Source: a virus
Taxonomy: Duplodnaviria; Caudoviricetes
Direction: 5' to 3' (one strand)
Length of the DNA stretch: 56,143 nucleotides
IMG/VR virus record: IMGVR_UViG_3300019766_000013
Span: 1-56,143 of that record
This document shows positions 5,865 through 21,799 of the stretch, in pieces. Under the pieces are notes generated by a model, which was given only the letters and a program-made list of their open reading frames with translations, was not told the DNA's origin and did not search any database. Positions within the stretch are counted from its first letter, which is position 1, and the number at the start of each line of letters is the position of its first letter. The position numbers and the translations under genes were made by a program.

Positions 5865-8800
5865 ATGGCTAAAAAACAAAATAAAAAAAGCCTTATGGAA
5901 GACATGAAGGCTTTAAAAAAAGAAGATAGAGTACAACAACAACAACAACAACCAACAGGTATAAAATCCTTTCTGCAAGATGCCTTAAAAAGAACAGGTA
6001 ATACTTACTCCGAAGAAAAAGCCAATAAGCTTTTATCTAAATTCAATCATAACTATGATGCTGTTATAGATTTCGCAGGAAATAAAGCTGGCATAAAAGA
6101 CAAAGATAAATTTAGAGAAGGTGTATATGATAGGTATAAAATAACTAAACCTAGTGATGAATTTATGGCTGAGATAGATTTTATCAAAAAGCCTATATCT
6201 GCAGATCAGGAAGCAGGCTATGATAAATATCAACAACTACAAGATGATTTAACGCTTGCTCAGTCTATGGCAACGCGTCTTCAACCTAAAGAAAAGCCAC
6301 TGCCTATAATGGAAGAAAAAACAGTTGCTAGAGATGTTACAAGGATGGAACAACCTCAATTGACTGATGAATTTCTTTCTCCAGAAGCTCTTCAAGAAAG
6401 AGAAGATGAAGCTCATATGCAAACACGTATGTTTAACATTGGTAAAAAAGTCGATGAAATAAACAAAGCAATTGCAGAACAAGGAGAATTAAATAAAAAG
6501 AAATTTGGTTTTGTTTCCAAAGAACACGAAGGAGTAAGAAAACAATTCGACAAATACTCTTCCATATTACAAAAGGCTATTGATGAAGGAGAGGAAAAAA
6601 GGCTAACTGCACAACAAGAAGCTACAGGACTACAAGCTCAAGCAGGAACTGCATATCAAAGAGCTATGCCTTCCATGCCATATTTAAAAGCTGATAGAGA
6701 GAAAATAGACAACTTAAGAGGTATTAAAGACCTATATGGTAAGATGGGTAAAATACTAAGTTCTCCACATGGGAAAGACTTTGGTTCTCAAATGAGTGGT
6801 CTACTGCATGGATTTAGCGATAACTTCTTTACAAGAGATTTTGCTACTCTTGGATTGAATGAAATGTCAAGATTAATGAGTGTAAAGGATGCATTTGAAG
6901 CACAAAAGAAATTAGAGGAAGAAGGAAAGACACAAGAAGAGATTGCAGAATTAATGCCAGAAGAACAAAAGGCATTATTAGATACATATGAACTATTTCT
7001 TAATATACAAGCTGGTAATAAAGGAAACTTTGGTTCAGTAATAGGAGAGGGATTAAAAGAAATGATTCCTTTCATAGCTCAATTTGCTGCAACCGGTGGT
7101 GTTGGAACAGGTGTAAAGAAGATGGTGAAGGAATTTGTAGAAAATAAAACTAAAAGTGCGGTTGCTGGTCGCTTAGCAGGTGCAGTAGCCAAACCATTAG
7201 CACAAGCTGCCGCTATGATTCCTGCTGAACTACAAAACTATGCTCAGAGAGTAGCCCCTACTATGGATGAAGGAGGAAAGTTAATAGAAGGTGCTGAACC
7301 TCTTAATGCTGCATTCAAAGCATACCTAACTACTATAGCTGAGGTAGCAGGGGAAGATGTTGGTGTGTTTGTTAATAAATGGGCTAACAAAGCTGCTAGG
7401 AAAAACTTTATGAAGCTTATTGCAAGTAATCCTACTAAGGCACAGGAATTTCTTGGTAAGATATCATTAGCTCTTACAAGAGAAACAAACTTTCCTGGTA
7501 TCCAAGGTTTTGTATTTGAAGGACTAGGAGAAGAAGCTACAGGTATAATGCAAGCATCTATAGATCAAGATGGAAGTTTCTTTACCCCAGAAGCACAAGC
7601 TCAACTATGGGGAATGTCTTTTATGGCTAGTGGTACTTTTGCTACATTATCCGCACCAAGCAGAATAGCAACCAGAAGAAATTATAATAAAGCACAGGAT
7701 TTATTAAATGATATACCTAACGAAGAATACTCTAAAGCAATAGAAGATGTTGCTATGAACTATCAAGAACCGCTTGAAGCAATTGAAGCTCTTGATGCAG
7801 TAAGTAAGGAATTTAAAATATCTCAAGAGGATTATTACAAAGCAAGGAACTTTATAGGAAATTCAGTAAGGTATAATCAAATGAATACCGCTAGGGCTAT
7901 TCAGGTTGAGCAGCAAATAGCACAATCTAAAGGAAGTGATGGTAATGTTACATTAACTAGGTACAATGGAGAACCATATAGTATAAGGAATCCTCAAGAC
8001 TTGGGTAAAGAAGGTAGGGTTATATTTCTTAAATCAAGTGATGGATCTAAGGTGATACCTGTTATTAGTTCTAAGGTAACAGAATGGGAATCGAAGACAC
8101 CGGAGCAAATTACTGATGAGCAGGTATCTGGACAAGATGCTCAGGATGAAACACTGGAACAAGAACAACAGATTCAAGAAGAAGCTGCTCAAAAAGGATT
8201 AATAGAAGGTAATACGGTAGAGACTCCTCTTGGAAAAAGAACTCTTGTATCTATTAATCCTGATGGCTCGGCTATTGTAGAAGATACAAAAGGAGAACAG
8301 GCAACTGTTAATTCACATGAAATAGAAGCATACAAAACCCAAGAACAAAAGGATGCTGAAAAGCTGAAGCAAGAAACTGATATGCCTTTAATGGAAGGAA
8401 TTGAAGAAGGTACTGAGATAGTATCTGATGAACCATTGACAGAGGACTCAGATATTAGAGTAGTAGATTTTGCCAATGGACAAAGTAAGATAATTACTCC
8501 AGAAGGAGAACAAGTCTTTAATTCACAAGAAGAACGTGATATTGCTATTCAAGAATTAGTTTCAAGTGAATTAGAAGCTACAGAAGAGAATATAGATGAA
8601 ATGCCTCCTGAGCAAGCCTTCTCGTTAATGCTTAAAGATGATCCAGATATAGCTAAAGAGATATTCTCTGAGGAAATAAGTGATGTAAGGAAACAAGCTG
8701 AAGAAGCAAGGGCACAAGTCAAAGAAACAACTTCTAGGAAACAAAAGCAGGATCTTCTATTGAAAGCTAAACAACTTGAAGCAGAAGCTGAAAGATTAGA

Positions 8801-11800
8801 TGTTATCTTACAAGATCCTACAATGCTTGAAGTAAAAGAAGAAGAAGAGATCATAAAAGAAGAACCTACTACTAATGAACAATTATTTGAGGTTGCTGAT
8901 AATTTACATAACGAGTATACCCAAGAAGAAGAAAACTCTCCTTATAATCTATTAACTCCATGGCAACAAGAATTTCTAGGAACTAAGATTAACCAAGAAA
9001 GTTTTGAACGATTTAGTGATCCTAACTATATTACTAAAACATTAGCTAGTTCATGGTTCACTAGAAAAGGTGAAGGAACAACTAATAATAATATAGATGT
9101 TATCGCTCAGGAACTTTCTGAGATTTTAGGTATTGATGTTTCGGAACAGGAAATAGTAGACTTTATTGTTAATTATCCTACTAATTCAGTAAGGAAGACT
9201 ACGGATAGAATGAGAGAAATCCAAAGTGAATATAGAGATATTACAGGAAGGGCTATTAAAAATCATAATACATTAAGTGATGCTTTAGGATTAGAAGCAC
9301 CTATTACTGAATATGCTGAAGATACTCCTTTTGGCAAAATAGAAGAAGAAGTTCCATTTAGAGCAGAACCGGAAGGTGTTAATGTTTCAGATAAGGCTAG
9401 AGAAGATCTTGCTACAAAGACAAGAATAGAGCCTACATTAAACGAACTACAGGATAAATTTGGTATTCCTATAGAAATAATCCACTCTAGTGAAATGCCA
9501 GAACACGTTAAACGTGCTGCTAAGGGAAAAGAGATTACTGCAACTGGATTCTATGATCCATCAACAGGTGTTGCCTATATTCTTTCAGATAAAGTTAAAC
9601 GTATTGCTGACCTTAAAAAGACTTTCATGCATGAAGCTGTCCTTCATAAAGGATTAGATGTATTATTTAATACTGGTCCTGTTAATATACTTGGTAAATC
9701 ATTTGAAACTAAGAATGATTTATTAGAAGAGGTATTTAATAGGATGGATACTGAGACTATTGCAGATAGAGCTAAGTATTACGGTAAAGCTTTCTTTGAT
9801 CAATACTTTGATGTGAAAGATGGCAAATATATCTTAAAAGAAGGTGCAGACCTTAACGCTCTTCCTGCTAAAACTAAATTAGAACTAGCTGAGGAAGCAT
9901 TAGCAACACTAAACGAAATTGAATCTCCTAGACTACAGGTAATGCTTGATAAGCTTTATAACTACATTAAAAAGCTAATGGGATTCACTTCTAAGCAGTT
10001 TACTAAAGCTGACCTTAGAAACTTATTAAGAGAACATAGAGATTTAGTTATTAAGCAAAAGGAAGAACTAGATGTTAAGCCAGAAGTTATTGAAGAGGAC
10101 AAAGTAAGATTCAGAACAGAAGAAGAAATGTCTGTATTGAAAGATAACAATAAATCAACATGGCCGAAAATTCCAACAGACAATGTATTTACTAATAAAA
10201 AGGGAAAGATACCTTTTAAAGAATCAATGGTTTATGATGAACTTATTGAATCAGAACAAGGAACAATTCAAAATGTATTGATAGATGACATTATTCCTAC
10301 GCAAAATAATCTTAATGCATATAATATAGAAGAGGTTAAAGATATAGACTTAAAACCTGAGCTATCATTATACAATGGTAAGTATTATGTCGTTGATGGC
10401 CATCATCGTATTGCAAATGCTATTATAGATGGAGAAAACAATATTAATGCTATTGTTTATAGTCCTGACATTCGTTTCCGTGTCGCAGAATCTCCAGAGG
10501 AAATAAAAGACTTTATTAAGGATTCAGCTATAAAAGAAACAGTTTATCATGGTACTAATCAAAACATTAAAGAATTTAAACTTGATCAGATTGGACAAGA
10601 TGTTAAAGGATTAACTTCAAAGAGTGGATTTTGGTTTACCAACTCTATCGATGAAGCTCAACAATACGCAGACTATTCAGCAGAAAGAATGGTCCCTGAC
10701 AGCATAGAACATGAAAAGAAAGTTAATGAACTTCTTGAAAGAATAAGTCAAGCAGAAAGAAAAAGAGATTATGATTTAGTCGATAAATTAACGGCAGAGG
10801 TTGAAGATTTAGAATTTGGAGCTATGCAAGCTGAACCGTCAGGACAAAATATTGTTAATACATTTATTAATATTAAAAACCCTCTAGTTGTAGATGCTAG
10901 TAAAAAAGGTTTTGACCAAGTAGAGGTGATTAATGAAGCTAAAAAGAATAATAATGATGGTGTTATATTTAAGAATATCTCTGATTCTCCTAAGGGTGAT
11001 TTGACAACAGACCAATATTTAGTATTTAATCCAGAACAAGTTTTAATTAAAGGTGAGGCACCTAAATTTCGAGTAGCAGAATCTTCCCAAGAGCTAGAAG
11101 ACTTTGTTAAGGATAGCAAGGTTAAGGAGACTGTGTATCATGGAACTGATCAAGAGTTTGAAGAATTTGACCCTACTAAAATAGGAACAGCTACAGATAA
11201 AGGAATGCTAGGCAAAGGATTTTATTTTTCTAAAAATAAAAAGACTGCTGAAAGTTATGGAGATATAATTAAGACAGCTCGTCTTAATATTAAAAATCCA
11301 TTATTAATTGATACTTTTAAAAGTAAAAAAGAATTAGCTGAGCATTTAGGAATAGATGAAAGCACGCTAACTGTAGGCGGTACTGGTATAAAATCATTAC
11401 AACCTTATACTGGCGTTTTTTCAGATGCAGTAAAAAGTAAGGGTTATGATGGAGTTGTAACAAAATTTGAAATAGTTGCATTTAGTCCAGACCAAATCCT
11501 TATAGAACCTAAAGAAGAAGACGTTAGGTTTAGAACTATGCATGAAAAAGACAGAAAGATCTATCAAGATATTACTGATAAAATAACTTCTAAACTTGAA
11601 AAAGCAGGCCACCGTATTTATAAAATTAGTCGTTCTACTACTGATTTCGGGAATAGTTGGTATATTAAACTTGATGATAATTTATACAATCCTCTTCAAG
11701 TAAGAATATCAAATCACGGTGTAGGAGACCGTAGGTTTATTAATGACAGAACTATTTCTTATATAAATAATAGAATATCTGATGAAAACCTTAATGATGA

Positions 11801-14800
11801 AATTGATTATATTATCAATGAACTTAACGTATATCAAAAGAATACAAAAAAAGAACAGGAGGACGCTAAGAGAAGGAAAAAGGAACATGATAAGTATTGG
11901 AATACTGCAATTAAAATAAAAAATAATCTTATTGAAGAAAATAAGATTATTGGTAATCTTCCTCGGACCTCTATGACTATTGAAGAAGTAACAGAAAAGC
12001 ATCCTGAATGGACTAATGTTATGCAAAAAGAAGAAAAAAGAGGGTCTTTAGGAAAGGCATTCTCATATTACTATATAAGACCAGAGGAAAAAGGCGAGCG
12101 TGCAAAAAATGTATCTAGAACACCTAGTGCTGACTACGTTAATTATTTATTAGATAAACAAGAGGATGATGTTAAGTTTAAAGCTATTAAAGAAAATATA
12201 GAAAAATGCCAAGTGTGTGATAAAATGAGAACGACTCCAGAAGGTGAAGCATTTTGGCAAGAAATGATGAAAACTAAGGTTCCTATATCCGAAGAAGAAT
12301 TTCTTGAAAATTCTGATGTCTCAGATATTTTAGATGAAGATGAAACATGGGAGGAATATTTAGAAACACAAATAGCCCAGGACGAAGTTGATTTTTATAA
12401 ATCAGCAAACGGAGCATATTTTTTCCAGACAGCAGGATTTGAATTTATATGGAAAACCAAAGATAGTGATCCTTCATTTTCTACTAATATGAAAGATGAA
12501 GAAATAATTAGATTCAAAGTAGAAGAAGAACGAGACAAAGTAGAAACTAATCCTTCTGAAGCACAGAAAGAAGCAGGAAACTATTCTATGGGGCACGTTA
12601 AGCTTGATGGCTTTGATATATCAATAGAGAATCCAAGAGGTTCTATTCGTTCTGGTGTTTCTCCAGAAGGTAAGAGATGGTCTAATATTATGCCTGCTGA
12701 TTACGGTTACTTTAAAGGAACAGTAGGAAACGACAAGGATCATATCGATGTATTTATGGGTGATAACTTAGATTCTGATAAGGTTTTTGTTGTGGATCAA
12801 GTAGATCCAGAAACATATGAATTTGATGAACACAAAGTAATGATGGGGTATAATTCTATCTCTAAAGCACGTAACGCTTATAATGAAGCTTATGACGAAG
12901 GATGGGAAGGGTTAGGGGCTATTAGTAGAACTACTAAAGATGGATTGAAAGAATGGTTTAAAGGTGATACTAAGAAACCATTTGCACCAGATAAAGTTAA
13001 ATTCAGAGCTACCTCAGAGGATCCTGCAGTTCAAAAGATGCTTGATAGATTACAAGCCGTTCAGAAGCTAAGTAAAGCTACTGAACGGATTAAAGGAATG
13101 GAAGCAGAGAAAAAAATGACACCTAGCAAGCTTTCACGTAAGTTTGCACAAGATAAGATTGATCTACTTAAAGAAGGTATTCAGCTAGGTAGAGAAGAAG
13201 CTAAGGAAACAATAACCGAAGTACAAAAGGCTATTACTGACTATGCAAAGAAAACTCTTCCATTAACTGAAGCAGGAGCAAGAGAGATAGGTCCTGTACT
13301 TACTTTAGTTAAGAATGCACAAACACCAAACGCTATAATTAAAGCATTTGAACGTATTGATGAACTAGCAGGTGTTACTACTGAAAGAACTGAACGCAGA
13401 AAGAATGTTGCTAAAGTGAATCGATTACTTAAGTGGATGACAGGACTTAAAAAGTCAGGACAAAAACGAGTAGGTAAATTTGCCTATGAGGATACTAAAG
13501 CATTCCAAAACCTTAAGGACATAGATAAGAATACAACTCAATTTATTAAGACTATCAATTCTCGCAAGGCAACTGCTGATGAAAAAGCAGAAGCTACTAC
13601 TCAGTTAGACAAGTTATGGAATGAACTTAATGAAAAGGCTGATAAGAACGACTTAGATAACGCTGCAATGAAACTAATAGAGTTAAGAAGATTAGGCTCT
13701 AAGGCAAGCCCTAAGTTAGCTCAAATAGTAAGTGAGGAACTAGAAGCTATCTACACTAAGGCTAAAGAAGCAAAGAATGAGATTGATATGCTTAAAGGAA
13801 TGCAAAGAAAGGCTGATAAGAACTTAGTTCGTTCATTCTTGGAAGACAGTAAAGCTCTTAAGAAACAGCCATGGTATAAACGTGCAATGACTCAAATTAA
13901 TACAGGTGTTGCAGATGTCATGGGTAACTGGGAAACTCTTATGATTATGATAGGAGGAACAGAACTTAGAGATAAAATGTCATTCATGCTTGATGAAGCA
14001 AATATGACAGTAGGAAAACAGGAAACAACTGATAACATTCTTAACTCTGCAAAGGATATCTACGGTGTTAAGTCAAAGAATGGCACTCTTAATAAGATAC
14101 ATGAACTATCTGCTAAAGATTATGAGTTAAGACGACCTAACAGAAAAGGAGAAGCTGGTGCAGGAGAACCAATGTCATTATCTAAACTTCATTTAATGGA
14201 TATTTATAACGCTCTTAAGAATGAAGATGTAGAGAATGACTACTACATGGCTTATGGTGATATCTCACTTAATGATGATGGTTCACGTAACACAGAACTA
14301 CAGAAAGCAGATGGTAAAGCAACTATAACTAAGTTACTTGAAAATCTATCTGATGAAGATAAGGCTTTTGCAGATGCTATGCAGGCAGAACTTGATAAGT
14401 ACTACGATAGACTTAATGAAGTTCATATCAAACTTTACAATAGAGATTTACCACGAGTAGAGAACTATTGGCCATCAACTGCAGAGAGAGAACAGGACAT
14501 TGATGTTATGGAGCAATTCTTCATTGATTCAAGACATCCAAGTGCTACAAAAGAACGTTCTGCTCATAGAACTCCACTACCACAAGATGCTTTTAATAAA
14601 TTTACTAAGCATATTGATGAAGCTGAATGGTATGTTAATATGGCTTTACCTGTCATGGAAGCTAATAAACTGTTTAAGGATAATAACATCAAAACTCTTA
14701 TAGGTGATGTAAGAGGTGAAAAATTCTACAAACATGTAGAAGAATCATTGCAAAATGTTACTTTAACACCTCCTGGCAAGGCACAACAAAAAAGCAAACT

Positions 14801-16136
14801 GACTGCAATGTTAAACCCATTGCTTAACAACTGGGTTGCTAGTAAGATTGGTGCAACTCCTTCAGTTCCATTAAAACAGTTACTATCAGCAGTGAACTAC
14901 GCTGAGAATATGCCAATGGAACAATGGGTAACAGGATTCATTAAGGATCTTGCTAGTCCAAAGGACACATGGGATGAGATGATGAAGATTCCTTATCTTA
15001 AGGCTCGTCTAGGTGATGGATACTCAGAAGCAGTACAGAGAGCATTAAATGGAGATGAACACGTTCATAAATCTAAAGTAACCAATTACCATACTGCATT
15101 TAAGAATCTTATGACGATTGGTACTAGATATGGTGATATAGCAGCTATTATATTTGGAGGTAAGCCTTACTTAGATTATCTTCTTAAGACAGGATTAAAT
15201 GAAAAGGATGCAGTAGATAAGTTCTTACAGGACACTTTACGCTCTCAACAAGCTCCTTTTGCATCTACTCTATCTAAGTTACAGAATAGCAGAAATCCTT
15301 TCTTTAGAGCAGTATTTGCTTTCTCTAACACTCCTTCACAATATATGAGGAAGTTATTTGAAGCTAACCAGAATCTAAGAGTTCAAAAGAAACAATTAAA
15401 TGCAGGAAAGATAACTCAGGAAGAATACAACAAAGCTAGAAAGCAGACTATTAAAGCTCATACTATCTACGCTCTTGTTAATACAGTTTCCTTTACAATG
15501 GTTGGTGCGTTAATCGGAGCATTCATGAAAGGTTCTGGAGTAGATGATGATATCTGGAAAGATATGCTTAACCAACTAGGACAAACATACACAGGTGGTT
15601 TACCAGTTATAAAAGACTTAATTGGAGGTATGACAAGAAGAACTCTAGGTATGCCTATCTACGATGATGCTAAGCCATTCGTTGAAGGACTTGACGAAGT
15701 AGTAACTGAAGGTATTAAGATTGCTAAAGGAGAGTCTAAAGATGAAGCTAAGTCTTATGAGAAGATAGGACAAGGTGTTGCTACTATGCTTGCTATTCCT
15801 TACTATAACATTAAGAAGGATATTGAAGCTATTCCTCCTTTCAGAGAAGAAACATTTAAAGCTACTAGAGAAAAGGAAGTAGAAAGAAAGTTAAACGATA
15901 TTAAGAAAGGTAGTAATATACAGAAAGCCAATGCTGCTACTTCTATAAAGAAAGCCTACAGTAAAGCTAAAAAGCTTTCTAAGAAGCTTAAAGAAGAAGG
16001 ACAAGTTATCAAGTCCAAGAGAATAGATAGAGCAATAGAACTATCTAAAAGAAATCTTTGGAAGTCTAACTTCAATGTAAGCGACATAGATAGTGAATTG
16101 AAAATGTTTGATAAGAGAATAGATAGAGTTAAATAA
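5865..16136 (+). CDS. Large polyvalent protein (zincin-like MPTase, ParB-like, two ART-PolyVal, polyvalent inorganic pyrophosphatase-like, helical C-terminus)
   Basis: 3423 aa; GFYDP...MHEAVLHKGL; IIPTQ...VVDGHHR; two VYHGT...GF[WY]F...NIKNPL...DGV units; PSEAQKEAGNY...IENPRGS...DHIDVF...FDEHKVM. Confidence 0.85.
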   Translation: MAKKQNKKSLMEDMKALKKEDRVQQQQQQPTGIKSFLQDALKRTGNTYSEEKANKLLSKFNHNYDAVIDFAGNKAGIKDKDKFREGVYDRYKITKPSDEFMAEIDFIKKPISADQEAGYDKYQQLQDDLTLAQSMATRLQPKEKPLPIMEEKTVARDVTRMEQPQLTDEFLSPEALQEREDEAHMQTRMFNIGKKVDEINKAIAEQGELNKKKFGFVSKEHEGVRKQFDKYSSILQKAIDEGEEKRLTAQQEATGLQAQAGTAYQRAMPSMPYLKADREKIDNLRGIKDLYGKMGKILSSPHGKDFGSQMSGLLHGFSDNFFTRDFATLGLNEMSRLMSVKDAFEAQKKLEEEGKTQEEIAELMPEEQKALLDTYELFLNIQAGNKGNFGSVIGEGLKEMIPFIAQFAATGGVGTGVKKMVKEFVENKTKSAVAGRLAGAVAKPLAQAAAMIPAELQNYAQRVAPTMDEGGKLIEGAEPLNAAFKAYLTTIAEVAGEDVGVFVNKWANKAARKNFMKLIASNPTKAQEFLGKISLALTRETNFPGIQGFVFEGLGEEATGIMQASIDQDGSFFTPEAQAQLWGMSFMASGTFATLSAPSRIATRRNYNKAQDLLNDIPNEEYSKAIEDVAMNYQEPLEAIEALDAVSKEFKISQEDYYKARNFIGNSVRYNQMNTARAIQVEQQIAQSKGSDGNVTLTRYNGEPYSIRNPQDLGKEGRVIFLKSSDGSKVIPVISSKVTEWESKTPEQITDEQVSGQDAQDETLEQEQQIQEEAAQKGLIEGNTVETPLGKRTLVSINPDGSAIVEDTKGEQATVNSHEIEAYKTQEQKDAEKLKQETDMPLMEGIEEGTEIVSDEPLTEDSDIRVVDFANGQSKIITPEGEQVFNSQEERDIAIQELVSSELEATEENIDEMPPEQAFSLMLKDDPDIAKEIFSEEISDVRKQAEEARAQVKETTSRKQKQDLLLKAKQLEAEAERLDVILQDPTMLEVKEEEEIIKEEPTTNEQLFEVADNLHNEYTQEEENSPYNLLTPWQQEFLGTKINQESFERFSDPNYITKTLASSWFTRKGEGTTNNNIDVIAQELSEILGIDVSEQEIVDFIVNYPTNSVRKTTDRMREIQSEYRDITGRAIKNHNTLSDALGLEAPITEYAEDTPFGKIEEEVPFRAEPEGVNVSDKAREDLATKTRIEPTLNELQDKFGIPIEIIHSSEMPEHVKRAAKGKEITATGFYDPSTGVAYILSDKVKRIADLKKTFMHEAVLHKGLDVLFNTGPVNILGKSFETKNDLLEEVFNRMDTETIADRAKYYGKAFFDQYFDVKDGKYILKEGADLNALPAKTKLELAEEALATLNEIESPRLQVMLDKLYNYIKKLMGFTSKQFTKADLRNLLREHRDLVIKQKEELDVKPEVIEEDKVRFRTEEEMSVLKDNNKSTWPKIPTDNVFTNKKGKIPFKESMVYDELIESEQGTIQNVLIDDIIPTQNNLNAYNIEEVKDIDLKPELSLYNGKYYVVDGHHRIANAIIDGENNINAIVYSPDIRFRVAESPEEIKDFIKDSAIKETVYHGTNQNIKEFKLDQIGQDVKGLTSKSGFWFTNSIDEAQQYADYSAERMVPDSIEHEKKVNELLERISQAERKRDYDLVDKLTAEVEDLEFGAMQAEPSGQNIVNTFINIKNPLVVDASKKGFDQVEVINEAKKNNNDGVIFKNISDSPKGDLTTDQYLVFNPEQVLIKGEAPKFRVAESSQELEDFVKDSKVKETVYHGTDQEFEEFDPTKIGTATDKGMLGKGFYFSKNKKTAESYGDIIKTARLNIKNPLLIDTFKSKKELAEHLGIDESTLTVGGTGIKSLQPYTGVFSDAVKSKGYDGVVTKFEIVAFSPDQILIEPKEEDVRFRTMHEKDRKIYQDITDKITSKLEKAGHRIYKISRSTTDFGNSWYIKLDDNLYNPLQVRISNHGVGDRRFINDRTISYINNRISDENLNDEIDYIINELNVYQKNTKKEQEDAKRRKKEHDKYWNTAIKIKNNLIEENKIIGNLPRTSMTIEEVTEKHPEWTNVMQKEEKRGSLGKAFSYYYIRPEEKGERAKNVSRTPSADYVNYLLDKQEDDVKFKAIKENIEKCQVCDKMRTTPEGEAFWQEMMKTKVPISEEEFLENSDVSDILDEDETWEEYLETQIAQDEVDFYKSANGAYFFQTAGFEFIWKTKDSDPSFSTNMKDEEIIRFKVEEERDKVETNPSEAQKEAGNYSMGHVKLDGFDISIENPRGSIRSGVSPEGKRWSNIMPADYGYFKGTVGNDKDHIDVFMGDNLDSDKVFVVDQVDPETYEFDEHKVMMGYNSISKARNAYNEAYDEGWEGLGAISRTTKDGLKEWFKGDTKKPFAPDKVKFRATSEDPAVQKMLDRLQAVQKLSKATERIKGMEAEKKMTPSKLSRKFAQDKIDLLKEGIQLGREEAKETITEVQKAITDYAKKTLPLTEAGAREIGPVLTLVKNAQTPNAIIKAFERIDELAGVTTERTERRKNVAKVNRLLKWMTGLKKSGQKRVGKFAYEDTKAFQNLKDIDKNTTQFIKTINSRKATADEKAEATTQLDKLWNELNEKADKNDLDNAAMKLIELRRLGSKASPKLAQIVSEELEAIYTKAKEAKNEIDMLKGMQRKADKNLVRSFLEDSKALKKQPWYKRAMTQINTGVADVMGNWETLMIMIGGTELRDKMSFMLDEANMTVGKQETTDNILNSAKDIYGVKSKNGTLNKIHELSAKDYELRRPNRKGEAGAGEPMSLSKLHLMDIYNALKNEDVENDYYMAYGDISLNDDGSRNTELQKADGKATITKLLENLSDEDKAFADAMQAELDKYYDRLNEVHIKLYNRDLPRVENYWPSTAEREQDIDVMEQFFIDSRHPSATKERSAHRTPLPQDAFNKFTKHIDEAEWYVNMALPVMEANKLFKDNNIKTLIGDVRGEKFYKHVEESLQNVTLTPPGKAQQKSKLTAMLNPLLNNWVASKIGATPSVPLKQLLSAVNYAENMPMEQWVTGFIKDLASPKDTWDEMMKIPYLKARLGDGYSEAVQRALNGDEHVHKSKVTNYHTAFKNLMTIGTRYGDIAAIIFGGKPYLDYLLKTGLNEKDAVDKFLQDTLRSQQAPFASTLSKLQNSRNPFFRAVFAFSNTPSQYMRKLFEANQNLRVQKKQLNAGKITQEEYNKARKQTIKAHTIYALVNTVSFTMVGALIGAFMKGSGVDDDIWKDMLNQLGQTYTGGLPVIKDLIGGMTRRTLGMPIYDDAKPFVEGLDEVVTEGIKIAKGESKDEAKSYEKIGQGVATMLAIPYYNIKKDIEAIPPFREETFKATREKEVERKLNDIKKGSNIQKANAATSIKKAYSKAKKLSKKLKEEGQVIKSKRIDRAIELSKRNLWKSNFNVSDIDSELKMFDKRIDRVK

Positions 16137-21271: not shown

Positions 21272-21337
21272 TGCCGAACTTTCCCGGCAGTCATCCACTT
21301 ACAAGACGTTCCTTTCTTGTCAATCCTCTTGTGGCTG
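21272..21337 (-). ncRNA. Structured element/terminator 3' of the tRNA
   Basis: CCAC/GTGG and ACAAGA/TCTTGT stems, then TGCCGG-GAAAGT-TCGGCA followed by TTCTTTTT. Confidence 0.45.
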
Positions 21338-21343
21338 ATTATG

Positions 21344-21417
21344 TGGACCTTGACAGGCTTGAACTGCCGACCTGCTCATTATGAGTGAGCTGCTCTAACC
21401 ATCTGAGCTAAAGGTCC
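21344..21417 (-). tRNA. tRNA with CAU anticodon, most likely tRNA-Ile2 (lysidine type); elongator Met not excluded; CCA not encoded
   Basis: GGACCTT TA GCTC AGATGGTTA GAGC A GCTCA CT-CAT-AA TGAGC AGGTC GGCAG TTCAAGC CTGTC AAGGTCC A folds into a full cloverleaf. Confidence 0.93.
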
Positions 21418-21745
21418 ATTGCCCCTTACGTTAGGGCAGTCCGTTAACCTACGCTGCTACTTTAGCAGGTGAGTTAAATGATTGTATTGTTTTGCCTGTT
21501 AAGCAGTTTAAGCTCTCCATTATTTACTATTCTTATCTGTCAAAGCCAGTCAGCCCCATGGCTCGCAAGGTAAGCGATCATTAATCAATCTTACCTCACT
21601 TGTGTTTTTATACAGTATTTAACTGTTATTGGGCGGGGGCTCAGTGATTCAACCGAGGATCATCCCCCATATGTGGAGCTGGAGAGTCTCGAACTCTCGT
21701 CCAAATAAGTCTTCAATAATTTCAATGAACTTTATTTATTTATCT
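21418..21745 (-). ncRNA. ssrA: Circularly permuted two-piece tmRNA: acceptor piece ~21745-21674, intervening segment 21673-21558, coding piece 21557-~21418
   Basis: The 3' module GGAC-GAGAG-TTCGAGA-CTCTC-CAGCTCC-A precedes the 5' module GGGGCTG-ACTGGCTTTGAC; G3.U70 pair; four inter-piece helices; tag ORF 21496-21449 GKTIQSFNSPAKVAA*. Confidence 0.9.
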
Positions 21746-21751
21746 GAAATT

Positions 21752-21759
21752 CAAATATA
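21752..21759 (-). promoter_or_regulatory. Bacteroidota -7 promoter box for the tmRNA-tRNA transcript
   Basis: Minus-strand TATATTTG just upstream of the acceptor piece. Confidence 0.7.
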
Positions 21760-21799
21760 CAACTATTTAGTTAGTAAATAGTATAATAGTCAATTATTT

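What the first reader, a model, noticed from the sequence alone, without database searches (positions are those of the whole stretch)
21418..21759. Phage-encoded, circularly permuted, minimal two-piece tmRNA
Seen (minus strand): promoter TATATTTG; then the tmRNA 3' module (T-arm GAGAG-TTCGAGA-CTCTC, acceptor strand CAGCTCC-A at 21674); 116 nt later the 5' module GGGGCTG-ACTGGCTTTGAC (21557). The halves form a 7-bp stem with the G3.U70 alanine determinant. They pair further as CAGATAAG/CTTATTTG, AATAGT/ATTATT, TAATG/CATTG and GAGCTT/AAGTTC. A tag ORF ending VAA* follows, with a hairpin (TTAAC..CTGCT/AGCAG..GTTAA) over its end. The mature pieces total only ~210 nt versus ~350-400 for one-piece tmRNAs, leaving little room for the usual pseudoknots. 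Established: two-piece tmRNAs are known from Alphaproteobacteria and some cyanobacterial and betaproteobacterial lineages, while Bacteroidota ssrA is normally one-piece. No smpB is present here. Inference: an independent phage permutation that uses host SmpB, AlaRS and the CCA-adding enzyme to keep ribosome rescue running or to redirect tagging during infection, possibly against tRNA/mRNA-cleaving defences. I cannot verify whether this lineage is already catalogued.
Basis: partly seen in the sequence, partly recalled or inferred. Interest (0 to 1): 0.92.

Follow-up and report, generated by a model that had tools for sequence, protein, structure and literature searches.

The report
Split tmRNA gene in a phage
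This phage carries a real, unusually small ribosome-rescue RNA gene whose two halves are encoded in swapped order, and it belongs to a widespread but barely described family found in phages of Bacteroidota, including gut crAss-like phages.

Summary
On the minus strand at 21418-21746 lies a circularly permuted (two-piece) tmRNA gene. Rfam's general permuted model RF04321 scores it 57.7 bits (cut-off 47). ARAGORN misses it.

All parts are present:
- an acceptor stem with G3.U70 and a T arm;
- a three-part connecting helix;
- a UUAACA|GGC resume context;
- a 15-codon tag, GKTIQSFNSPAKVAA*;
- a terminal hairpin abutting tRNA-Met.

The window is a 93%-complete virus record. Its terminase and portal are nearest to those of phages of Bacteroidota. 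It encodes no SmpB.

The gene is not unique. Pattern scans of viral contigs gave 35 distinct CCA-less relatives. Helices covary and tags stay in frame.

The family fails the alpha, beta and cyano models. Its resume codon sits at nt 59-68 of the coding piece, leaving no room for pseudoknot PK1.

RefSeq crAss-like phages cr10_1 and cr50_1 already carry annotated members. Phage two-piece tmRNAs are also in print (PMC9004378).

So this is a new member of an under-described, minimal variant. An independent origin of the permutation is plausible but not shown.

The parts
21752..21759 (-). Promoter-like -7 box TATATTTG (the Bacteroidota-type TAnnTTTG consensus is recalled, not from a call)
   Evidence: Sequence. 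The flank 21754-21785 is 93.8% identical to relative L003, which carries other cargo. The motif is not enriched in the window, but 8 of 30 family members have it upstream, against a 5% background. The transcription start is not known.
21674..21746 (-). Acceptor piece (5' end assumed). It holds the 3' strands of P2c (21732-21727), P2b (21720-21715) and P2a (21709-21702), the T arm (21698-21682), the acceptor 3' strand (21681-21675) and discriminator A (21674). No CCA is encoded.
   Evidence: covariation among relatives.
21558..21673 (-). Intervening segment (116 nt), expected to be removed during processing. It folds into three hairpins.
   Evidence: Fold -33.3 kcal/mol, z = -3.43, 0 of 200 shuffles as good. 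Loop motif at 21589-21575 is shared only with L020/L063.
21418..21557 (-). Coding piece (140 nt). It holds the acceptor 5' strand GGGGCTG (21557-21551), the D-loop analogue (21550-21540), the 5' strands of P2a (21539-21532), P2b (21524-21519) and P2c (21515-21510), a 13-nt linker ending UUAACA (21509-21497), the tag ORF and the terminal hairpin (21437-21421).
21449..21496 (-). Tag reading frame GGC...TAG encoding GKTIQSFNSPAKVAA*
   Evidence: Translation. Homologous tags: GKTVNIFGYEAKVAA (L020) and GKTIQVNFAPAQVRAAA (L016), called by ARAGORN. Resume context and position are conserved in 28 of 28 relatives with a called tag.
21343..21417 (-). tRNA (anticodon CAT) directly abutting the coding piece. 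RNase P cleavage at its 5' end would set the 3' end of the coding piece (inference).
   Evidence: ARAGORN; Rfam tRNA 66.5 bits. The same layout is seen in L079, L094 and crAss-like cr10_1/cr50_1.

Best explanation
This is a genuine, probably active, two-piece tmRNA (ssrA) gene carried as an accessory cassette by a phage of a Bacteroidota host.

Proposed pathway:
1. One transcript is made, probably from the TATATTTG box. It runs acceptor piece - 116-nt spacer - coding piece - tRNA(CAT).
2. Host tRNA-processing enzymes cut it. RNase P cuts 5' of G21557 and 5' of the tRNA. A 3' endonuclease such as RNase Z cuts after A21674. The CCA-adding enzyme then adds CCA, because none is encoded.
3. The two pieces stay together through the 7-bp acceptor stem and a three-part helix 2 (P2a, P2b, P2c).
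4. Host AlaRS charges it through G3.U70.
5. Host SmpB and EF-Tu bring it to stalled ribosomes.
6. Translation resumes at GGC (21496), 13 nt after P2c, and adds (A)GKTIQSFNSPAKVAA before the stop TAG.

The extended helix 2 sits where pseudoknot PK1 lies in other tmRNAs, and there are no pseudoknots.

Shown: the gene anatomy, family membership, covariation and tag conservation.

Inferred: processing, charging, tagging, and the benefit to the phage. That benefit would be keeping ribosomes free when infection produces many broken mRNAs, with a tag of the phage's own.
For: Detection and fold:
- RF04321 scores 57.7 bits against a cut-off of 47.
- All sequence parts are at the stated coordinates.
- The two-piece cofold gives -57.9 kcal/mol against -48.0 for shuffles, 0 of 200 as good.

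Size of the family:
- 105 viral loci matched the permuted pattern.
- With the window that makes 106 hits: 62 encode CCA and 44 do not, and 35 of the 44 are distinct.

Covariation on the 30-sequence alignment A1 (28 distinct rows):
- 78.9% of cells pair, against 44-53% when partners are slid. The covariation score is 0.372 against at most 0.153, and 0 of 500 shuffles reach it.
- Positions left free in the search pattern covary. Acceptor pair 5 is paired in 28 of 28 rows with 5 pair types. T-arm pair 2 is paired in 27 of 28. The P2a pair at columns 57:303 is paired in 28 of 28.
- P2a alone: 72.8% paired against 37-48% slid.
- P2b and P2c together: 62% against 35-54.5% slid.
- Cognate acceptor/coding duplexes average -15.65 kcal/mol, against -11.21 for non-cognate pairs.

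Tags:
- A frame was called by a loose rule in 30 of 30. It ends AA in 25, VA in 4 and VV in 1.
- A stricter rule places the resume codon at nt 59-68 behind a UAA-type context in 28 of 30.

Other support:
- ARAGORN of 29 relatives permuted tmRNA.
- 11 of 13 relatives tested reach RF04321's cut-off.
- Coding pieces end at a terminator-like hairpin or at a tRNA.
- Phage context. Relatives infect Bacteroidota.
- No integrase was found, so an attachment-site reading is unlikely.
Against: - There is no RNA evidence of any kind, so processing, charging and tagging are untested.
- ARAGORN misses the window's gene.
- Its Rfam score is only 10.7 bits over the cut-off. CCA-encoding viral permuted tmRNAs score 75-147 bits.
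- G3.U70 and much of the acceptor stem and T arm are invariant among relatives by construction of my search pattern.
- Support for P2b and P2c is modest. The MAFFT alignment is out of register for some rows, and only 59-65% of cells pair.
- In the window itself the cognate P2 duplex (-12.1 kcal/mol) is matched or beaten by 7 of 29 non-cognate partners.
- PK1 matters for function in E. coli tmRNA (recalled, not from a call), and it is missing here.
- No SmpB is encoded, so function depends on a host protein accepting a divergent RNA.
- Close relative L003 carries protein genes in the same slot, so the cassette is dispensable.
Confidence: 0.75

Rival explanations
1. The RNA is made and charged but acts as a modifier or decoy of host trans-translation rather than a like-for-like supplement. 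It could compete for host SmpB, or add a tag that host proteases read differently. Rescue would then be uncoupled from degradation, or host tagging blocked.
For: - Tags in the family differ strongly from host-type tags. Examples are GKTIQSFNSPAKVAA, GEQFNEYRIAA and a 29-residue tag ending SVV, against ...YALAA or ...YAMAA in the Bacteroidota sample.
- No SmpB is encoded.
Against: The tag frame, the resume context and the C-terminal AA are kept across the family: 25 of 30 end in AA. That is what a degradation tag needs and what a pure decoy does not.
Confidence: 0.15
2. The gene descends from one of the three described permuted lineages (alpha, beta, cyano), for example from the beta-like forms common in viral contigs. 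It would have been reduced in phages and moved into Bacteroidota phages, rather than arising by a new permutation of a one-piece gene. This rivals only the 'independent origin' part of the reading.
For: - Beta_tmRNA is the best sub-threshold lineage model for the window (30.8 bits) and for several relatives (up to 44.2 bits).
- In the comparison of the tRNA-like domain, 9 of 26 family members have their best match among CCA-encoding viral permuted forms.
- A CCA-encoding viral form (L005) also has an early resume codon, at nt 66.
Against: - None of the lineage models reaches its cut-off.
- Family tags start with G or D, while 12 of 12 CCA-type tags start AN.
- No CCA is encoded, as in the Prevotella one-piece genes seen here.
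- 15 of 26 best matches are to Bacteroidota one-piece tmRNAs.
- The one-piece tmRNA of Cellulophaga phage Calle_1 shares the UAAAC|GGA resume context.
Confidence: 0.4
3. The locus is a remnant: a captured 3' end of a host tmRNA serving as a phage attachment site, plus chance complementarity. It would not be a working gene.
For: - Phages often integrate into tmRNA genes and carry their 3' ends (stated in PMC9004378 and PMC11590407, passages read).
- Contigs from the same habitats carry a 39-nt match to the T arm and acceptor strand.
Against: - No integrase is found in the 93%-complete record.
- The matching 5' half, helix 2, the resume context and the tag are all present and covary in relatives.
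- The full-length Rfam match is above the cut-off.
Confidence: 0.03

Closest known systems
Permuted tmRNA of RefSeq crAss-like phages cr10_1 (NC_055875.1) and cr50_1 (NC_055868.1), annotated 'transfer-messenger RNA, SsrA'
   Same: - Permuted gene order; ARAGORN calls both tmRNA*.
- Only RF04321 is passed, at 49.6 and 60.3 bits.
- No CCA is encoded.
- Short coding piece with the tag soon after helix 2.
- G-start tags: GNNFVTDYTQLAVA and GNNFVTDYTAIGA.
- A tRNA directly behind the coding piece.
- The phages belong to an order that infects Bacteroidota (abstract of PMC10136315 in the listing).
   Different: - Different phage group: Crassvirales, about 99 kb, against this 56-kb phage whose terminase is nearest to flavobacterial phages.
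- The 5' end reads GGGGCTGC..., so my GGGGNTGA pattern missed them.
- The sequences are too far apart for blastn from the window.
Two-piece tmRNAs of marine phages (Melnitz, pelagimyophages, cyanophages; PMC9004378) and the CCA-encoding permuted tmRNAs in viral contigs
   Same: - Phage-encoded, permuted, and processed into two pieces.
- 18 of 18 tested reach RF04321's cut-off.
- Intervening segments are 100-130 nt.
   Different: - They score 75-147 bits, and 12 of 18 also pass beta_tmRNA.
- They encode CCA.
- Their tags start AN... in 12 of 12.
- Their resume codon is at nt 83-109 in 11 of 12, which leaves room for PK1.
Alpha-, beta-proteobacterial and cyanobacterial two-piece tmRNAs (Rfam RF01849, RF01850, RF01851)
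   Same: Circular permutation with the break downstream of the tag. The acceptor piece comes first in the gene, and the tRNA-like domain is formed in trans.
   Different: - The window gives no alpha hit, beta 30.8 of 84 and cyano 36 of 70.
- The known coding pieces 'typically' keep PK1 and PK2 (PMC3985003, passage read). Here there is room for neither.
- Model lengths are 288-355 positions, against about 213 nt here.
One-piece tmRNA of Bacteroidota and of flavobacterial phages (e.g. Cellulophaga phage Calle_1)
   Same: - G-start tags occur in part of the phylum: GENNYALAA, GEYNYALAA, GNNEYALAA.
- No CCA is encoded in the Prevotella genes.
- Calle_1's resume context is UAAAC|GGA.
   Different: - Standard gene order, about 350-400 nt, with pseudoknots.
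- RF00023 scores 86.6-197.6 bits on them, against 16.5 for the window.

Membership tests
tmRNA (any form) | tRNA-like domain: a 7-bp acceptor stem with G3.U70 and discriminator A, a T arm with a TTCGA-type loop, and a D-loop analogue | tested here: met
   Sequence at 21557-21540 and 21698-21674. Aligned to the RF04321 consensus without non-standard pairs in these stems.
tmRNA (any form) | Helix 2 joining the tRNA-like domain to the mRNA-like part, kept by compensatory change | tested here: met
   P2a: 72.8% of cells paired against 37-48% slid, all 8 pairs changed on both sides, 0 of 500 shuffles. P2b and P2c are weaker: 62% against 35-54.5%.
tmRNA (any form) | Tag reading frame with a resume codon behind a conserved -6 to -1 context, ending in hydrophobic residues plus a stop | tested here: met
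   UUAACA|GGC ... GCA GCG TAG gives GKTIQSFNSPAKVAA*. The context and position are shared by 28 of 30 relatives. Tags end AA in 25 of 30. The need for positions -6 to +1 is stated in PMC3985003.
tmRNA (any form) | Pseudoknot PK1 upstream of the tag and further pseudoknots downstream (typical, not universal) | tested here: not met
   Only 13 nt lie between P2c and the resume codon. The resume codon is at nt 62 of the coding piece, against 83-109 in 11 of 12 CCA-type viral forms. Only about 30 nt with one hairpin follow the stop. No dedicated pseudoknot search was run.
tmRNA (any form) | Alanylation, SmpB binding and tagging activity | not testable with these tools
   No SmpB in the record. No RNA runs available.
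Permuted tmRNA (Rfam RF04321) | Score at or above the curated gathering score (47 bits), with the acceptor piece upstream of the coding piece | tested here: met
   57.7 bits, model positions 1-213, 21449-21731(-).
alpha_tmRNA (RF01849) | Gathering score 50 bits | tested here: not met
   No match at E <= 10.
beta_tmRNA (RF01850) | Gathering score 84 bits | tested here: not met
   30.8 bits, on model positions 76-172 only. Relatives reach at most 44.2 bits.
cyano_tmRNA (RF01851) | Gathering score 70 bits | tested here: not met
   36 bits.
Standard one-piece tmRNA (RF00023) | Gathering score 47 bits; 5' and 3' halves in standard order | tested here: not met
   16.5 bits on the acceptor piece only. 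The order is permuted.

The most novel reading that the evidence does not exclude
Phages of Bacteroidota, whose hosts use one-piece tmRNA, carry their own lineage of permuted tmRNA. It would have arisen by a fourth independent permutation among bacterial-type tmRNAs. It would also be the most reduced tag-encoding tmRNA known: about 210-230 nt, no pseudoknots, and an extended helix 2 standing in for PK1. Its spacer can even house a complete tRNA gene. If so, PK1-PK4 are dispensable for natural trans-translation, and abundant gut phages (crAss-like) reprogram ribosome rescue with their own tags.
Probability: 0.35. Interest if true: 0.75.

Novelty: new variant of a known kind. Interest (0 to 1): 0.55.

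Why it matters
tmRNA biology has long asked which parts of the molecule are truly needed. A natural family of about 213-nt two-piece tmRNAs with no pseudoknot, a conserved resume context and conserved tag ends would be a ready-made minimal system for that question.

For phage biology, the family shows that phages of Bacteroidota, including crAss-like gut phages, bring their own ribosome-rescue RNA with tags unlike the host's. That points to control of ribosome rescue or of protein tagging during infection.

For annotation, ARAGORN missed 7 of 29 relatives as well as the window's own gene. The three lineage-specific Rfam models miss all members tested. Only the 2025 general model finds them, and only weakly.

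The instance itself is ordinary within that family.

Tried and rejected
1. blastn of the locus against 50,697 phage records matched only the tRNA. An exact 29-mer of the T arm and acceptor found nothing in viral contigs.

2. Close relatives by terminase. L003 has the same flanks but protein genes in the slot. L004 ends inside the tRNA, so it says nothing about the tmRNA. My first impression that both lack it was wrong for L004.

3. The genome contigs pattern scan gave 29 hits. All are one-piece tmRNA 3' ends followed by a chance GGGGNTGA, or in L113 by a second tmRNA 5' end. No family member was found in bacterial genomes, but only spacers of 70-100 nt and CCA-less forms were covered.

4. The sub-threshold RF04321 hits in Bacteroidota genomes that I inspected (L172-L174) are one-piece tmRNAs.

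5. Identity of the tRNA-like domain to reference groups does not resolve the origin. I built no tree, because about 66 alignable bases carry too little signal.

6. A family covariance model could not be built (forecast too long). P2b and P2c therefore rest on a MAFFT alignment.

7. Expression: no RNA holder is listed among the public runs. The contigs laid are DNA. Two runs carry the stretch without differences and may be the source or the same campaign. Other runs cover only the tRNA and a 39-nt part. None of this bears on expression.

8. Host checks of other family contigs. The L098 group's 616-aa protein is nearest to Prevotella Lak phages at 43% identity. L016 found nothing. L087's ligase is nearest to Bacillus phages and says little. 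'Bacteroidota phages' is therefore shown only for the window, the L098 group and the crAss-like phages.

9. Literature searches found no paper describing a permuted tmRNA lineage of Bacteroidota phages. Sharkady and Williams 2004 is not held.

Full report
**What is there.**

Read on the minus strand (coordinates), the region holds in order:
- a TATATTTG box (21759-21752);
- an A/T-rich leader;
- three 3' strands of a long helix;
- a T arm, GAGAG-TTCGAGA-CTCTC (21698-21682);
- the acceptor 3' strand CAGCTCC (21681-21675), with discriminator A at 21674 and no CCA;
- 116 nt of spacer;
- GGGGCTG (21557-21551), which pairs with CAGCTCC to give G3.U70;
- a D-loop analogue;
- the three 5' strands of the helix;
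- a 13-nt linker ending UUAACA;
- a 15-codon frame, GGC...GCA GCG TAG (21496-21449), encoding GKTIQSFNSPAKVAA*;
- a small G+C-rich hairpin (21437-21421);
- directly behind, from 21417, a tRNA with anticodon CAT.

Rfam's general permuted-tmRNA model RF04321 matches 21449-21731 end to end at 57.7 bits. Its cut-off is 47, and E = 1.2e-08 for the whole window. ARAGORN finds only the tRNA. With an assumed 5' end at 21746, the two pieces are 73 and 140 nt. Their joint minimum-energy fold recovers every helix at -57.9 kcal/mol. Shuffled acceptor pieces average -48.0 (sd 3.2), and 0 of 200 fold as well.

**Context.**

The window is an entire IMG/VR virus record, estimated 93% complete, with G+C of 0.30-0.36. 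It encodes a large terminase, a portal, tail proteins and a small terminase.

The terminase is nearest to phages of Riemerella, Croceibacter, Cellulophaga and Chryseobacterium, at 31-38% identity. The portal matches only three Bacteroides phages. No SmpB and no tyrosine integrase are found in six-frame searches.

In relative L003 (terminase 82% identical), the same flanks are present: 21279-21344 and 21754-21785, at 88-94% identity. There they enclose two protein genes instead of the tmRNA-tRNA cassette. The cassette is therefore exchangeable cargo. The other relative, L004, ends inside the tRNA and is uninformative.

**Relatives.**

A two-module pattern was scanned over viral contigs with three spacer ranges. 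It requires T loop through acceptor strand, then a spacer, then GGGGNTGA. The scans returned 74, 18 and 13 loci. The second and third scans were restricted to genes without CCA.

With the window that is 106 hits. Of these, 62 encode CCA and 44 do not, and 35 of the 44 are distinct. I dropped five before aligning:
- L095 has no tmRNA-like 5' part;
- L030, L042 and L102 resemble the CCA type;
- L080 is cut at the contig end.

I aligned the remaining 30, which give 28 distinct rows (A1).

The two groups differ.
- CCA-encoding forms: 18 of 18 tested reach RF04321's cut-off, at 75-147 bits, and 12 of 18 also pass beta_tmRNA. Of 13 put to ARAGORN, 12 were called, and all 12 tags start AN. The resume codon lies at nt 83-109 of the coding piece in 11 of 12.
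- CCA-less forms, the window's family: 11 of 13 tested reach RF04321's cut-off, at 47-73 bits, and 2 fall short (39.3 and 41.2). None reaches the alpha, beta or cyano cut-offs; the best is beta at 44.2 of 84.

For the window itself there is no alpha hit, beta gives 30.8 of 84 and cyano 36 of 70. ARAGORN of 29 family loci permuted tmRNA.

**Structure by comparison.**

On A1, the five helices pair in 78.9% of cells, against 44-53% when partners are slid by 1-3 columns. The covariation score is 0.372 against at most 0.153, and 0 of 500 shuffles reach either value.

Much of the acceptor stem and T arm, including G3.U70, is fixed by my search pattern and proves nothing. The positions left free do covary:
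- acceptor pair 5 is paired in 28 of 28 rows (CG 13, UA 7, GC 6, AU 1, UG 1);
- T-arm pair 2 is paired in 27 of 28 rows with four pair types.

P2a alone pairs in 72.8% of cells, against 37-48% slid, and all 8 pairs change on both sides. P2b and P2c are weaker, at 62% against 35-54.5%. Part of that is because MAFFT puts some rows out of register.

Intermolecular folding of each acceptor/coding pair shows the same P2a-loop-P2b-loop-P2c layout in most members. Cognate pairs average -15.65 kcal/mol, against -11.21 for non-cognate pairs. The window itself is a weak case: 7 of 29 non-cognate partners do as well.

The window's distal pairs are AATAAT/ATTATT and GAGCTT/AAGTTC.

**Tag.**

By a loose rule, all 30 sequences have a frame. 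It ends AA in 25, VA in 4 and VV in 1. By a stricter rule, 28 of 30 have a G-start resume codon at nt 59-68 behind a (U)UAA(A/C)N context. L047 and L091 fail that rule.

The window's tag is clearly homologous to those of L020 (GKTVNIFGYEAKVAA) and L016 (GKTIQVNFAPAQVRAAA). Other members carry GEQVEMAMAA, GENVYEMKMAA, GNKTSYAMAA and similar tags.

The coding piece ends at a terminator-like hairpin with a T run, or at a tRNA. With only 12-13 nt between P2c and the resume codon, and about 30 nt after the stop, there is no room for PK1 or PK2. A review says known two-piece tmRNAs typically keep both (PMC3985003, passage read). I ran no dedicated pseudoknot search.

**Hosts and origin.**

In a sample of the GTDB phylum that contains Prevotella:
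- 57 of 61 genomes have a one-piece tmRNA above the cut-off;
- 0 of 151 have a permuted match above the cut-off;
- the three best sub-threshold hits are one-piece genes.

A pattern scan of 185,579 species genomes found no family member. It covered spacers of 70-100 nt only.

Part of that phylum uses G-start tags: GENNYALAA, GEYNYALAA, GNNEYALAA. The Prevotella genes encode no CCA. The one-piece tmRNA of Cellulophaga phage Calle_1 has the same UAAAC|GGA resume context. These points fit descent from a Bacteroidota-type one-piece gene.

Identity over the tRNA-like domain does not decide the matter. Best matches are Bacteroidota one-piece in 15 of 26, CCA-type viral in 9, and high-G+C bacteria in 2. 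An independent permutation remains an inference, at roughly even odds.

**What is already known.**

Two-piece tmRNAs in phages are published. The Melnitz paper reports 53 two-piece forms among 133 unique phage tmRNAs by ARAGORN, mostly marine (PMC9004378, passages read). RF04321 itself comes from the 2025 tmRNA database paper, which lists 79 bacteriophage sequences (PMC11915505, passages read).

Searching phage records with relatives led to three RefSeq crAss-like phages annotated 'transfer-messenger RNA, SsrA': cr10_1, cr50_1 and cr60_1. Of these, cr10_1 and cr50_1 are permuted. They are ARAGORN tmRNA* with tags GNNFVTDYTQLAVA and GNNFVTDYTAIGA, and RF04321 scores 49.6 and 60.3 bits. They are CCA-less and short, and a tRNA follows each.

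Seven literature searches found no description of this lineage or of its architecture. Flavobacterial phage papers only count tmRNA genes.

**Verdict.**

This is a real permuted tmRNA gene and a new member of a widespread, minimal, CCA-less and pseudoknot-free family in phages of Bacteroidota. The family is present in reference annotation but not characterised in print as far as I could search. The mechanism is by analogy with known two-piece tmRNAs and is untested. No RNA data were available.

Noticed in passing
L082:3674-3748 and L085:5855-5927: In two family members, the spacer between the acceptor piece and the coding piece is a complete tRNA gene. ARAGORN calls tRNA-Ala(tgc) in L082 and tRNA-Glu(ttc) in L085. 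A tRNA is thus nested inside a permuted tmRNA gene.
   Followed up: partly
window 21575-21589 (-); L020:2044-2058; L063:8824-8838: A 15-nt loop motif, ATTGATTA(A/G)TGATCG, sits in the spacer of the window and of L020/L063. It lies on hairpin stems of different sequence (GGTAAG/CTTACC against CTAAAGG/CCTTTAG). It occurs in no other of the 182 loci. Its function is unknown.
   Followed up: partly
L003:4824-5713 (-): The slot that holds tmRNA and tRNA in the window holds, in a close relative, a 187-aa protein with a long alanine-rich repeat and a 76-aa Cys-rich ORF. The flanks are the same. The repeat causes a false isrG RNA hit.
   Followed up: partly
L181:123-301 and L182:870-1036: RAGATH-9 (97 bits, cut-off 75.2) and RAGATH-22 (155.6 bits, cut-off 120.3) RNAs lie a few hundred bases upstream of the permuted tmRNA genes of crAss-like phages cr10_1 and cr50_1.
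   Followed up: no
L005:3901-4033 and similar loci (L007, L033, L037, L049, L052): A second short group of viral permuted tmRNAs encodes CCA. It has an AN-start tag (ANDDSYFGEYRLAA) and its resume codon is already at nt 66. It passes only RF04321 (83.8 bits). A manA RNA lies nearby in L005.
   Followed up: partly
window 5865-16136 (+): A single 3423-aa ORF takes up 18% of the phage genome. It was not analysed.
   Followed up: no
L113 (Actinomyces provencensis contig): A tmRNA 3' end is followed 96 nt later by a complete-looking tmRNA 5' end (GGGGATGATCGGTTTCGAC...). This looks like a tandem arrangement left by an integrated element.
   Followed up: no
window 21672-21710: Contigs of four public DNA runs match these 39 bases (T arm plus acceptor strand) with 5 differences. 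They then continue into sequence resembling the 3' region of Bacteroidota one-piece tmRNAs. This may be a co-occurring host's tmRNA.
   Followed up: no
L086:3622-3656: A DUF805b RNA motif matches above its cut-off (41.6 bits against 35.6), about 600 bases upstream of that phage's permuted tmRNA.
   Followed up: no
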